NCBI RefSeq assembly: GCF_009914755.1
Contig: NC_060943.1
Length of the DNA: 64,000 nt
From: the human T2T-CHM13v2.0 reference genome, Homo sapiens
Reading direction: 5' to 3' (one strand)
Shown piece by piece: positions 7,163 to 8,795 of the stretch (positions are counted from its first letter, which is position 1; each line of letters starts with the position of its first letter). A model generated the notes under the pieces. The model was not told the origin of the DNA. It made no database searches and was given only the letters and a program-made list of their open reading frames with translations. A program made the translations under genes and the position numbers.

Positions 7163-7252
7163 AGGACGCCTGGGATCTGCAGCACTGTGGCAATGACATG
7201 TTGGGGAGAAGGGACCCTCGCAGGCTCCCAGACCTGCTTTGTGACTTACTGA
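7163..7252 (+). pseudogene. Pseudo-exon homologous to FBXO27 exon 3
   Basis: Acceptor cccttactccctggtcctgcag|AG GAC GCC TGG GAT CTG CAG CAC TGT GGC. The 3' end tcccagacctgctttgtgacttactga|gtgagt compares with FBXO27 tctcagacgtgcttcgtgacttcattcag|gtgaat. 90 nt versus 112 nt. Confidence 0.85.
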
Positions 7253-7364
7253 GTGAGTGCCTGACCCCTGCCTCACCAGCCCTGGGCTTCAGAGCCTGAG
7301 AATGAAACCCGCCCTTCTTCCACCTCCTCTCCTGCCCATCTCCTTCCCTCCTTCCTCTTCCCAG

Positions 7365-7455
7365 CTGGTGCCACGAGGAGCTGGCGGACCGCCAAGAGAA
7401 TTGGCCAAGAATGCAGCCTCTGGACAGTGACCTGGGTGAGAATCATCACAGTGGC
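7365..7455 (+). pseudogene. Pseudo-exon homologous to FBXO27 exon 4
   Basis: Long pyrimidine tract then ttcccag|C TGG TGC, versus FBXO27 ttcccag|C TGG TGT. Reads WCHEELADRQENWPRMQPLDSDLGE versus [26 protein letters not shown]. Preceding intron is 112 nt (84 nt in FBXO27). Confidence 0.75.
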
Positions 7456-8496
7456 ACACCCCGGACCCAGGAATTTCACTTAGTCCTTGTCATCATCCCA
7501 GTCCTTGTCATCATCCACCAATGCGGGACAGCTCGGCCCAGATTGTTCATGGCTCAAGACCCCACCCCACCCCATTCTGCTTGGTTGGGCTGTGTTGTTT
7601 ATTTTATTTAATGAATTAATTTATTTATTTGAAACAGAATCTTGCTCTGTTGCCCAGGCTGGAGTGCAATGGCACGATCTCAGTTCACTGCAACCTCTGT
7701 CTCTCGGGTTCAAGTGATTCTCCTTGCCATGGTCCCCTGAGTAGCTAGGATTACAGGTGCCCGCCACCACACCCGGCTACTTTTCATGTTTTTAGTAGAG
7801 ACAGGGTTTCATTGTGTTGGCTGGGCAGGTCTTGAACTCCTGACCTCAGCTGATCTGCCTGTCTCAGCCTCCCAAAGTGCTGGGATTACAGGCATGAGCC
7901 ACCATGCCCGGCTGCACTGTGCTGTTTTTAAGCCTCTTGAATATCATCACCTCTCTTTGTCTACAGATGGGGAAACAGTTTACAGACGGGGAAACAGGCT
8001 CAGAGGGGAAAAATACCTTTTCAGGGTTTTCCAGGCAAAGAGTGGCAGAGCAGAGACCAACCTCCGCCTGGCCAAAGCCCTTCTCTGCTTCCTGTCCATT
8101 TGTGGGTGATCTGGTGGTTTCTCCTTTTCTTTCTTTCTCTCTCTCTCTCTTTCCTTTTTGACAGAGTCTTGCTTTGTCGCCCAGGCTGGAGTGCAATGGT
8201 GTCATCTCGGCTCACTGCAACCTCTACCTCATGGGTTCAAGCGATTCTCCCACCTCAGCCTCCCAGGTAGCTGGGACTACAGGCGTGTACCACCACACCT
8301 TGCTTTTTTTTTTTTTTTTGTATTTTTAGTAGAGACGGGGTTTCACCATGTTGGCCAGGCTGGTTTCGCACTCCTGACCTCAAGTGATCTGCCCACCTTG
8401 GCCTCCCAAAGTGCTGGGATTATAGGCATGAGCCACTGCTCCCGGCCAGATCTGGTGGGGTTTTTTTGAGACACAGCCAGATCTTCACAGTGCCAG

Positions 8497-8582
8497 GTGG
8501 GGTGATGTGCAGGACTGCAGCTGTGTCTGGATTCTGGACAAGGCTCCAAATGATCACCACCATATCTTGGCTGTTCAGTTAG
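8497..8582 (+). pseudogene. Pseudo-exon homologous to FBXO27 exon 5, internally deleted
   Basis: ccag|G TGG GGT GAT GTG CAG GAC TGC AGC TGT GTC = [10 protein letters not shown], ungapped against [10 protein letters not shown] and in the same phase. Ends ggctgttcagttag|gtgggt. Confidence 0.7.
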
Positions 8583-8719
8583 GTGGGTCTGGGCTAGAGA
8601 TGAGAAAGGAGGGGTGAGGGAGGAGGAGAGTGAGAAAGGAGGGGTGAGGGAGGAGGAGAGGAATCTGAGCCTCAGATCTGAGGCTGCAGGACTCTCTGCA
8701 TCATCTCCTCTTCCACATG

Positions 8720-8795
8720 GTACCCACTTTTGGGAAAGGCATCCGGATGTATGCTTTGAACAGTATACAAGGGCCTGTGGTCCTGGGACAATATT
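8720..8795 (+). pseudogene. Pseudo-exon homologous to the FBXO17/FBXO27 last exon
   Basis: Broken acceptor cttccacatg, then gt acc cac t TTT GGG AAA GGC ATC CGG -AT GTA TGC TTT GAA CAG TAT = FGKGIR(Y)VCFEQY with a 1-nt deletion, then tcc tgg. FBXO27 reads [12 protein letters not shown]; recalled FBXO17 reads FGKGIRYVSFEQY. Confidence 0.85.

What the first reader, a model, noticed from the sequence alone, without database searches (positions are those of the whole stretch)
7163..8795. Hidden fossil of another lectin-type F-box gene (FBXO17/27 paralog) on the plus strand, with exon-intron structure preserved
Seen in sequence: four short segments of non-repeat DNA match FBXO27 exons 3, 4, 5 and 6 of this same window, in the correct order. 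Three retain AG acceptors in the same codon phase (ag|AG GAC, cccag|C TGG TGC, ccag|G TGG GGT), and GT donors survive at 7253 and 8583. Matches: SQTCFVT is identical; WC..D...WP..LDS; WGxxxDxxC; GIR.V.FE. Lesions: exon 3 relic is 22 nt short and frameshifted, exon 5 relic is 50 nt short, the last acceptor is mutated (cacatg), and there is a 1-nt deletion after CGG at about 8746. Because it has introns it is a duplicated gene and not a retrocopy, and it is inverted relative to FBXO27. Inference: this is a lost member of the glycan-recognising SCF receptor cluster. I do not know of an annotation for it, but I cannot check databases.
Basis: partly seen in the sequence, partly recalled or inferred. 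Interest (0 to 1): 0.88.

Follow-up and report, generated by a model that had tools for sequence, protein, structure and literature searches.

The report
Decayed FBXO17-like lectin-domain pseudogene fragment
Between the human genes FBXO17 and FBXO27 lies the badly eroded, unannotated remnant of an old inverted copy of the sugar-binding half of such a gene; it is a real but ordinary dead duplicate, probably never a working gene for long.

Summary
Four single-copy, non-repeat segments on the + strand (7163-7252, 7365-~7466, 8497-8582, ~8705-8790) are collinear relics of exons 3-6 (the FBA domain) of an FBXO17/FBXO27-type gene. Each relic piece finds the right FBXO17 exon (4 of 4). Three acceptors and two donors sit at the parental positions, so this is an unprocessed duplicate, inverted relative to both neighbours.

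It is nearer FBXO17 than FBXO27: 40 against 32 of 70 residues, and clade support 100/100. That signal rests mainly on exon 6, and an AU test does not reject the alternatives (p 0.10).

No F-box exon was found in the 19 kb upstream. Divergence is almost flat across codon positions (25/24/33%). This argues for neutral decay since roughly the stem of placental mammals, not for a long-serving receptor that was later lost.

RefSeq does not annotate it. Pfam and tblastn miss it. It is a new member of a known kind, of modest interest.

The parts
7133..7162 (+). 3' end of former intron 2: pyrimidine-rich tract and AG acceptor (7161-7162)
   Evidence: The AG is followed by sequence that aligns with the start of exon 3 of FBXO17/27, allowing a 6-nt in-frame loss. 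The flank itself shows no similarity above shuffles (497/500 and 487/500 shuffles reach it).
7163..7252 (+). Exon 3 relic: 90 nt against 112, one frameshift near 7198-7201, several deletions, TGA at 7250-7252
   Evidence: SW score 158 vs FBXO17 (0/500 shuffles, 0/88 genomic controls reach it) and 136 vs FBXO27. Frameshift-aware alignment. The reciprocal hit lands on FBXO17 exon 3.
7253..7364 (+). Intron 3 relic (112 nt) with GT donor at 7253 and AG acceptor at 7363-7364
   Evidence: Its 3' end matches FBXO17's intron 3 end at 21/24 positions (3/500 shuffles reach it) and FBXO27's at 22/26 (15/500). FBXO27's own intron 3 is 84 nt.
7365..7466 (+). Exon 4 relic: open in frame over 7366-7428 with several codon-sized indels; donor lost; 3' limit approximate
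   Evidence: SW score 161 vs FBXO17 (0/500, 0/88) and 128 vs FBXO27 (1/500, 0/88). Alignments.
7467..8496 (+). Intron 4 relic: two masked Alu-type insertions (7590-7917, 8115-8480), an 18-nt tandem duplication (7482-7516), and an AG acceptor at 8495-8496
   Evidence: Masked stretches, tandem repeat, acceptor. I call the masked stretches Alu from reading the sequence and from recall; no repeat-family tool was available.
8497..8582 (+). Exon 5 relic: 86 nt against 136; only the first ~40 nt align well
   Evidence: SW score 100 vs FBXO17 at 8491-8528, weak alone (113/500 shuffles, 4/88 genomic controls reach it). It is collinear, and the reciprocal hit lands on FBXO17 exon 5. Amino-acid alignment.
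8583..8704 (+). Intron 5 relic: GT donor at 8583 and a 30-nt tandem duplication at 8596-8660; 3' limit approximate
   Evidence: The donor flank matches FBXO17's intron 5 start at 12/15 positions (0/500 shuffles reach it) and FBXO27's at 8/9 (203/500). Tandem repeat.
8705..8790 (+). Exon 6 relic, 5' two thirds only: acceptor lost or shifted, 1-nt loss after 8746, a further shift before 8783; the last ~25 codons are unrecognisable
   Evidence: SW score 164 vs FBXO17 at 8709-8787 (0/500, 0/88). alignment includes the FGKGIR and FEQY motifs typical of FBXO17. From 8794 onward the sequence has a separate hit on chr10.

Best explanation
This is an unprocessed (duplicated) pseudogene fragment. It holds the eroded exons 3-6, the whole FBA or lectin-domain part, of a tandem inverted copy of a gene of the FBXO17/FBXO27 lineage. 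It lies 15.5 kb from FBXO17's distal first exon, head to head with it.

Shown: the homology, the collinearity, the retained intron positions, the single-copy state, and the lesions. The lesions are at least three frameshifts, one in-frame stop, deletions of about 22 nt in exon 3 and 50 nt in exon 5, two lost splice sites, a missing C-terminal end, two Alu-type insertions in intron 4, and no detectable exon 2 (no start codon, no F-box).

Inferred: the copy arose on the FBXO17 side of the FBXO17/FBXO27 split, before the radiation of living placental mammals. It has drifted without coding constraint for nearly all of its existence. Either it was a partial copy that was dead on arrival, or it died soon after. 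It encodes nothing today, and no present function is indicated.
For: - **Homology with FBXO17.** Exons 3, 4 and 6 each exceed 500/500 shuffles and 88/88 genomic controls. The sum over exons 3-6 is 583 against 362+-23 (z 9.7) and 336+-22 (z 11.1).
- **Independent chain test.** A blastn chain on coding exons only gives 102.4 bits against a maximum of 82.6 in 500 shuffles and 81.7 in 88 genomic controls.
- **blastn over 21 kb, both strands.** The best hit of each of FBXO17 exons 3-6 (with 30-nt intron flanks) falls here, in order (E 8e-4, 0.003, 0.14, 0.003).
- **Reciprocal search.** The relic pieces hit the correct exon in FBXO17 4/4 and in FBXO27 3/4. In the four other family loci only one of 16 best hits lands on the right exon (FBXO44 exon 4).
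- **Splice sites.** Three acceptors and two donors sit at parental positions, and the exon 5 donor flank is FBXO17-like.
- **Single copy.**
- **FBXO17 affinity.** Residue identity is 40/70 with human FBXO17 against 32/70 with human FBXO27 (39-40 across seven FBXO17 orthologues, at most 34 for any FBXO27). The ML tree puts the relic in the placental FBXO17 clade at 100/100. The top 25 of 205 proteins, each aligned on its own, are all FBXO17. The relic shares 3 FBXO17-derived residues and 0 FBXO27-derived ones.
- **Pre-placental split.** The relic keeps ancestral P and D where all 7 placental FBXO17 sequences examined are derived. The clade FBXO17+relic+FBXO27 excludes marsupials and platypus (97/94; 98/95).
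- **Neutral drift.** Differences from FBXO17 by codon position are 24/95, 23/94 and 31/94 in a nucleotide-scored alignment. The two working genes, over the same region, differ at 18/76, 11/76 and 34/76.
- **No exon 2.**
Against: - Pfam finds no FBA match in any of the 8 open pieces, and the genome-wide PF04300 scan does not list the locus.
- tblastn pieces are individually non-significant (E 1.2-8).
- The exon 5 relic is not significant on its own.
- The FBXO17-side placement is not secure. The AU test does not reject 'relic with FBXO27' or 'relic outside FBXO17+FBXO27' (lnL difference 6.8, p 0.0995).
- Without exon 6 the grouping with FBXO17 drops to 88/17.
- All three shared derived residues lie in exon 6. 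In exons 3-5 the residues that tell FBXO17 from FBXO27 split 3 to 3.
- In a three-way MAFFT nucleotide alignment the relic agrees with FBXO17 alone at 83 columns and with FBXO27 alone at 67 (p 0.22).
- The relic row in the tree was aligned through FBXO17, which favours FBXO17. avoids this bias, but there too the lead comes largely from exon 6.
- The protein-guided dN/dS of 0.14 would by itself suggest constraint. I discount it because that alignment selects for amino-acid similarity and pS (0.71) is saturated.
- The dating rests on recalled neutral rates, not on a call.
- No other mammalian genome could be examined.
Confidence: 0.72

Rival explanations
1. Unitary loss: the relic is what remains in humans of a third working FBA F-box gene of placental mammals. 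That gene served for a long time, may still be intact in some species, and has lost its F-box exon by deletion.
For: Splice sites are kept at five positions. In exon 4 the frame stays open over 7366-7428 through codon-sized indels. Protein-guided dN/dS against FBXO17 is 0.14. Lineage-specific extra FBXO27-like genes in pig, degu and gundi show that the cluster can expand.
Against: Divergence is almost flat across codon positions in the unbiased nucleotide alignment. No exon 2 relic was found in 19 kb upstream, although exons 3-6 are still recognisable. Among the 205 collected proteins no third placental clade appears, and none is closer to the relic than FBXO17. The pig and degu extra copies sit inside FBXO27. 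The protein searches are word-indexed and limited to named sources, so absence is weak evidence.
Confidence: 0.13
2. The copy does not come from the FBXO17 side. It split at or before the FBXO17/FBXO27 divergence, or from FBXO27, and only its last exon looks FBXO17-like, through gene conversion from the nearby inverted FBXO17 or by chance.
For: The AU test does not reject these placements (p 0.0995). The FBXO17 signal is concentrated in exon 6: all 3 shared derived residues and 7 of the 10 FBXO17-only agreements lie there. Without exon 6, support falls to 88/17. The three-way nucleotide count of 83 to 67 is not significant. The relic has FBXO27's WP in exon 4.
Against: Per-exon nucleotide scores favour FBXO17 in all four exons: 158/133, 174/139, 100/85 and 164/85. 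The exon 5 donor flank matches FBXO17's, not FBXO27's. No FBXO27-derived residue is shared. The states shared with FBXO27 are also present in the outgroup sequences, so they read as ancestral and say nothing for an FBXO27 origin. Even without exon 6 the best tree still joins the relic to FBXO17.
Confidence: 0.13
3. Chance or compositional resemblance, or an unmasked repeat, not a gene relic at all.
For: Pfam, the PF04300 genome scan and tblastn give nothing significant. GC-rich DNA elsewhere in the interval gives spurious matches to the F-box exon.
Against: The summed score has z about 10 against two kinds of control. The best hits of four exons are in order on one strand within 1.6 kb out of 42 kb searched. 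Reciprocal hits reach the right exons. Splice sites sit at parental positions. The pieces are single copy in the genome.
Confidence: 0.02

Closest known systems
FBXO17 (F-box protein 17), chr19:41745371-41779692, minus strand
   Same: The best match for all four exon relics. The two share exon order and the exon 3, 4 and 5 boundaries. They also share the FGKGIR and FEQY motifs of exon 6 and the start of intron 5. Residue identity is 40/70.
   Different: FBXO17 is intact, 278 aa, with an F-box exon; the relic has none and is broken throughout. The relic is on the opposite strand. Its introns are short: 112 nt, about 1030 nt of which 694 nt are masked insertions, and about 120 nt, against 1999, 1367 and 2202 nt in FBXO17. 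It keeps ancestral P and D where placental FBXO17 has Q and N.
FBXO27 (F-box protein 27), window 21624-49135, minus strand
   Same: Same exon structure. Exons 3 and 4 match significantly. SQTCFVT, the WP of exon 4 and a short intron 3 (84 nt against 112 nt) are shared.
   Different: The match is weaker everywhere (sum 448 against 583). Exons 5 and 6 are not detectable on their own. Residue identity is 32/70, and no FBXO27-derived residue is shared.
Unprocessed (duplicated) pseudogenes in tandem gene clusters, as a class (recalled general knowledge)
   Same: It lies next to its parent, keeps introns, carries frameshifts, stops and lost splice sites, and is inverted within the cluster.
   Different: It is much more eroded than the copies that pipelines usually annotate: about 28% nucleotide divergence over 283 alignable bases. 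It is partial, and RefSeq does not annotate it.
Fragment of FBXO27's last exon on chr17:11520544-11520865, inside DNAH9
   Same: It is another unannotated piece of this family in the same genome.
   Different: It is 84% identical over 331 nt. It covers only the end of the coding sequence and the start of the 3' UTR, with no intron to judge by. It is unlinked to the cluster and clearly younger.

Membership tests
FBA domain family (Pfam PF04300), FBXO17/FBXO27 subgroup, as a pseudogene | Significant sequence similarity to the FBA-coding exons | tested here: met
   Nucleotide SW against FBXO17 exons 3-6 gives z 9.7-11.1, and exons 3, 4 and 6 each beat all 588 controls. Reciprocal hits land on the right exons.
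FBA domain family (Pfam PF04300), FBXO17/FBXO27 subgroup, as a pseudogene | A match to the Pfam FBA profile | tested here: not met
   None of the 8 open pieces matches any Pfam family at E<=10. The locus is not among the 25 matches of the genome-wide PF04300 scan. This is expected for short, frameshifted pieces. It lowers 'recognisable domain', not homology.
FBA domain family (Pfam PF04300), FBXO17/FBXO27 subgroup, as a pseudogene | The family's exon order and intron positions | tested here: met
   Exons 3, 4, 5 and 6 are in order on one strand. The acceptors of exons 3, 4 and 5 and the donors of exons 3 and 5 sit at the parental positions.
SCF substrate receptor (F-box protein) | An F-box domain that binds SKP1 | tested here: not met
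   No relic of exon 2 was found on the + strand in the 19,162 bases upstream. The only elevated scores are GC-rich compositional matches at FBXO17's CpG island, on both strands, and an Alu-Alu match.
SCF substrate receptor (F-box protein) | An open reading frame | tested here: not met
   At least three frameshifts, TGA at 7250-7252, truncated exons 3, 5 and 6.
Unprocessed (duplicated) pseudogene | Introns retained, and a location next to the parent gene | tested here: met
   Intron relics lie between all four exon relics. The relic is 15.5 kb from FBXO17's distal first exon.
Processed pseudogene (retrocopy) | Exons joined without introns | tested here: not met
   The exon relics are separated by 112, about 1030 and about 120 nt, with splice signals.
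Unitary pseudogene (a lost gene that has working orthologues elsewhere) | An intact orthologue in other species at the syntenic site | not testable with these tools
   No other vertebrate genome was available. Indirectly, none of the 205 collected proteins is closer to the relic than FBXO17, and no third placental clade appears.

The most novel reading that the evidence does not exclude
The relic marks a third FBA-type F-box gene of early placental mammals: a head-to-head partner of FBXO17, as FBXO44 is of FBXO2 on chromosome 1. On this reading the gene worked for a time, may survive intact in some mammalian lineage, and left humans with one glycan-sensing SCF receptor fewer than their ancestors had.
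Probability: 0.12. Interest if true: 0.5.

Novelty: new member of a known kind. Interest (0 to 1): 0.3.

Why it matters
It adds a seventh locus to the human FBA (lectin-type F-box) family, which the literature I read counts as six genes (PMC3210139, passages read). It shows that the chromosome 19 pair went through at least one further duplication.

Together with the tree, it places the FBXO17/FBXO27 burst on the stem of placental mammals, because marsupial and platypus sequences fall outside both genes.

It is also a practical example of a relic that profile and protein searches miss. Exon-by-exon nucleotide comparison with the right paralogue recovers it with high significance.

It changes nothing known about glycoprotein quality control, and no function is indicated.

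Tried and rejected
- **Crude spliced alignment.** A single alignment with free long gaps put the real region on top (46 against a control maximum of 38; 0 of 120 controls reach it). But its path chained tiny chance matches and not the exon relics, so I dropped that scoring scheme.
- **First chain test.** I repeated it as with 500 shuffles instead of 1000.
- **Pfam and the PF04300 scan.** Pfam on 8 open pieces found nothing. The genome-wide PF04300 scan did not list the relic.
- **Exon 2 (F-box) relic.** I searched 19 kb upstream by SW and tblastn. Only compositional GC-rich matches turned up, at FBXO17's first-exon CpG island and on both strands: 63% identity in 73% GC.
- **Apparent intron 2 homology (score 1088).** It proved to be an Alu-to-Alu match with a noisy extension.
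- **FBXO17 3' UTR against 8788-10600.** Only Alu matches.
- **Relic introns 3-5 against FBXO17's introns.** No match clearly above the reverse-strand control: 116 against 85, 120 against 139, 85 against 127.
- **Three-way MAFFT of exons with flanks.** It misaligns the 3' half of exon 5, and its count (83 to 67) is not significant.
- **Protein-guided dN/dS.** Set aside as biased and saturated.
- **Pig, degu and gundi 'FBXO27-like' proteins.** I considered them as possible orthologues of the relic and rejected that. Pig and degu copies nest among FBXO27 orthologues, and the gundi copy branches at the base of the FBXO27 clade (99/95).
- **Rows in the tree.** Three human proteins spliced from the reference and the relic row were added.
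- **Literature.**
  - 'FBXO17, FBXO27, pseudogene' found 1 paper, which from its listing is unrelated.
  - 'FBXO17, FBXO27, eutherian' found 0 papers.
  - 'FBXO17, FBXO27, FBXO44, phylogenetic' found 4 papers. Of these I read passages of PMC3210139.
  - A fourth search led to PMC3984280, of which I read passages. It names neither FBXO17 nor FBXO27 in its main text. Its pseudogene screen needed an annotated pseudogene, tblastn E<=1e-40 and an F-box, all of which this relic fails.
  - Its Table S2, the list of nine pseudogenes, is a supplement and was not seen.
- **GENCODE and other pseudogene tracks.** They could not be consulted. 'Unannotated' means RefSeq RS_2025_08 only.
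Full report
**Setting.** The window is T2T chr19:41788001-41852000. The finding (7163-8795) lies in the 30-kb gap between FBXO17 (chr19:41745371-41779692, minus strand) and FBXO27 (window 21624-49135, minus strand). 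RefSeq lists no gene, pseudogene or functional element over it. The stretches masked as repeats nearby are 6392-6710, 7590-7917, 8115-8480 and 9616-10239. The four claimed exon relics lie in unmasked DNA, and two masked stretches sit between relics 4 and 5.

**Is the observation there?** Yes.
- AG at 7161-7162, 7363-7364 and 8495-8496, each followed by bases that align with the first bases of exons 3, 4 and 5 of both neighbours.
- GT at 7253 and 8583.
- SQTCFVT encoded at 7226-7246.
- A one-base loss after the CGG at 8744-8746.

The numbering 'exons 3-6' fits NM_178820.5, whose coding exons 2-6 are 364, 112, 96, 136 and 144 nt.

**Is it more than chance?** Protein-level tools say little.
- tblastn gives only E 1.2-8 per piece.
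- Pfam finds nothing in 8 open pieces.
- A six-frame PF04300 scan of the whole genome lists 25 matches, none here.

- Over 21 kb and both strands, the best blastn hit of each of FBXO17 exons 3, 4, 5 and 6 (with 30-nt intron flanks) falls at 7226-7259, 7357-7390, 8491-8528 and 8729-8765. All are on the + strand and in order, with E 8e-4, 0.003, 0.14 and 0.003.
- With Smith-Waterman scoring, exons 3, 4 and 6 score 158, 161 and 164. None of 500 dinucleotide shuffles of 6700-9199 and none of 88 real 2.5-kb genomic controls reaches any of these. The sum over four exons is 583 against 362+-23 and 336+-22, z 9.7 and 11.1.
- A blastn-chain test on coding sequence alone gives 102.4 bits, against maxima of 82.6 and 81.7.
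- Exon 5 alone is weak: 100, reached by 113 of 500 shuffles and 4 of 88 genomic controls.
- Against FBXO27 only exons 3 and 4 stand out. Exon 5 (85) and exon 6 (99, at the wrong place) do not. The sum has z 4.8-5.2.
- In the reverse direction, the four relic pieces searched against 10-kb loci of all six family genes land on the correct exon in FBXO17 4 of 4 times and in FBXO27 3 of 4. In the four other loci only one of 16 best hits lands on the right exon, FBXO44 exon 4.
- The pieces are single copy in the genome. The exceptions are a 30-nt tandem duplication in intron 5 and a stretch beyond the relic's end.

**Anatomy**.
- *Exon 3 relic:* 7163-7252, 90 nt against 112. It has a 6-nt in-frame loss at its start, a frameshift near 7198-7201, further deletions, and TGA at 7250-7252 just before the retained donor.
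- *Intron 3:* 112 nt.
- *Exon 4 relic:* it starts at 7365 and reads in frame over 7366-7428 with several codon-sized indels. Its donor is gone.
- *Intron 4:* it carries the two masked insertions. Without them it would be about 340 nt.
- *Exon 5 relic:* 8497-8582, 86 nt against 136. Only its first 40 nt align well. Its donor and the first 15 intron bases match FBXO17's (12/15; 0 of 500 shuffles reach it) and not FBXO27's.
- *Exon 6 relic:* about 8705-8790. It has a one-base loss after 8746 and another shift before 8783, and the last 25 or so codons cannot be recognised.
I leave it open.
- *Exon 2:* no relic of exon 2 (start codon and F-box) was found in the 19,162 bases upstream.

**Which gene does it come from?** It belongs to the FBXO17/FBXO27 group. 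I collected 205 family proteins in three searches.
- Seventy relic residues placed in a family alignment are identical to human FBXO17 at 40 sites (39-40 across seven FBXO17 orthologues) and to human FBXO27 at 32 (at most 34 for any FBXO27). Marsupial, platypus, sauropsid and amphibian relatives match at 24-31, and FBXO2/6/44/NCCRP1 at 16-23.
- The ML tree of 40 rows puts the relic inside the placental FBXO17 clade (100/100) on a long end branch of 1.07. It groups FBXO17+relic with FBXO27 (97/94), with marsupials and then platypus outside.
- When each of the 205 proteins is aligned to the relic pieces on its own, the top 25 are all FBXO17 (202-211). The best FBXO27 scores 187.
- The relic shares three residues that are derived in FBXO17 and none derived in FBXO27. 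It keeps ancestral P and D, and a Q of unclear polarity, where all seven placental FBXO17 sequences examined are derived.

**Evidence against a firm FBXO17 placement.**
- The AU test does not reject the relic with FBXO27 or outside both (lnL difference 6.8, p 0.0995).
- All three shared derived residues are in exon 6.
- With exon 6 removed from the relic row, it still joins FBXO17, but at 88/17. Its place inside the placental FBXO17+FBXO27 clade stays strong at 98/95.
- A three-way nucleotide alignment gives 83 against 67 columns (p 0.22).
- The relic row was aligned through FBXO17, which biases.

I therefore hold 'FBXO17 side' as likely, not settled.

**Age and history (inference).**
- In a nucleotide-scored alignment, 283 bases align with FBXO17 at 72.4% identity (Jukes-Cantor distance 0.34). 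Differences by codon position are 24/95, 23/94 and 31/94.
- The two working genes, over the same region, differ at 18/76, 11/76 and 34/76.
- The near-flat profile means that most change happened without coding constraint.
- A first- and second-position distance of about 0.30 is more than the roughly 0.15-0.2 substitutions per site that I recall for the human lineage since the placental ancestor. That figure is recalled and comes from no call.
- Together with the tree, and with the ancestral residues that all placental FBXO17 have since replaced, this places the duplication on the placental stem and the death of the copy at or soon after its birth.
- The protein-guided dN/dS of 0.14 points the other way. 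That alignment selects for amino-acid similarity and its synonymous term is saturated (pS 0.71), so I give it little weight.

**What it is.** It is an ancient, partial, unprocessed pseudogene: an inverted tandem duplicate holding only the lectin-domain exons. It has no F-box, no reading frame and no sign of present function. The reading as a lost working receptor is not supported, though it is not excluded, because no other mammalian genome could be examined.

**What is known.** The literature I read counts six human FBA genes and mentions no pseudogene (PMC3210139, passages). A survey of F-box genes in Euarchontoglires (PMC3984280, passages) names neither FBXO17 nor FBXO27 in its main text. 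It used criteria this relic cannot meet. Its supplementary pseudogene table was not seen. Two further literature searches found nothing relevant. GENCODE could not be checked.

**Verdict.** The finding is real, ordinary in kind, and unannotated in RefSeq. Its interest is modest: a small addition to the history of the lectin F-box family, and an example of what profile searches miss.

Noticed in passing
L009 1044-1365 = chr19-unlinked locus chr17:11520544-11520865 (+), inside DNAH9: A 331-nt fragment that is 84% identical to FBXO27's last exon. It runs from 34 nt inside exon 6 to about 220 nt into the 3' UTR, and its translation carries an in-frame stop. No gene is annotated for it in genes.tsv. 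It may be a truncated retrocopy or a transposed piece.
   Followed up: partly
L010, chr4:57898998-57899153 (-): A weak PF04300 hit (E 0.15) in the genome-wide scan. tblastn with FBXO17, FBXO27 and NCCRP1 gave only E>5 there, so it is probably chance. The strong blastn hits in that locus are Alu-to-Alu matches with FBXO27's 3' UTR.
   Followed up: partly
window 8596-8660: A 30-nt unit repeated 2.1 times (97% match), purine-rich, inside the relic's intron 5. It resembles tandem arrays near the ends of chr6, chr7, chr12 and chr18.
   Followed up: partly
window 7482-7516: An exact 18-nt tandem duplication (1.9 copies) just after the exon 4 relic.
   Followed up: no
window 8794-8852: The stretch directly after the last recognisable relic base has one separate match, at chr10:87028732-87028790 (81%, E 3.8e-6). 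It may be an old unmasked repeat that marks where the relic's last exon is cut off.
   Followed up: no
window 30131-30503 and 23465-23506 (minus strand): Gnomon models of FBXO27 (XM_054319819/20/22) replace the last FBA exon with alternative 3' exons here. tblastn with FBXO27 and FBXO17 finds no family similarity in them, so those isoforms would end without the last third of the lectin domain.
   Followed up: partly
L005, chr19:41779461-41779916 (both strands), the CpG island at FBXO17's distal first exon: It gives the highest Smith-Waterman scores to the F-box exons of FBXO17/27 (211-279). The match is only 61-63% identical, in 73% GC DNA and on both strands, so it is a compositional artefact. 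It would mislead a naive search for the missing exon 2.
   Followed up: yes
proteins P0078, P0091-P0094, P0096, P0120, P0125, P0128, P0136: Pig, degu and gundi carry extra 'FBXO27-like' genes. In the tree, pig and degu copies nest among FBXO27 orthologues on long branches, and the gundi copy sits at the base of the FBXO27 clade. These look like recent lineage-specific expansions of the cluster with divergent lectin domains.
   Followed up: partly
tree: Opossum, dunnart and platypus sequences named FBXO27 fall outside a clade of placental FBXO17 plus FBXO27 (97/94 and 98/95). No marsupial or monotreme FBXO17 turned up in three searches. This suggests that the FBXO17/FBXO27 split is specific to placental mammals and that FBXO17 diverged fast afterwards (stem length 0.54).
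   Followed up: partly
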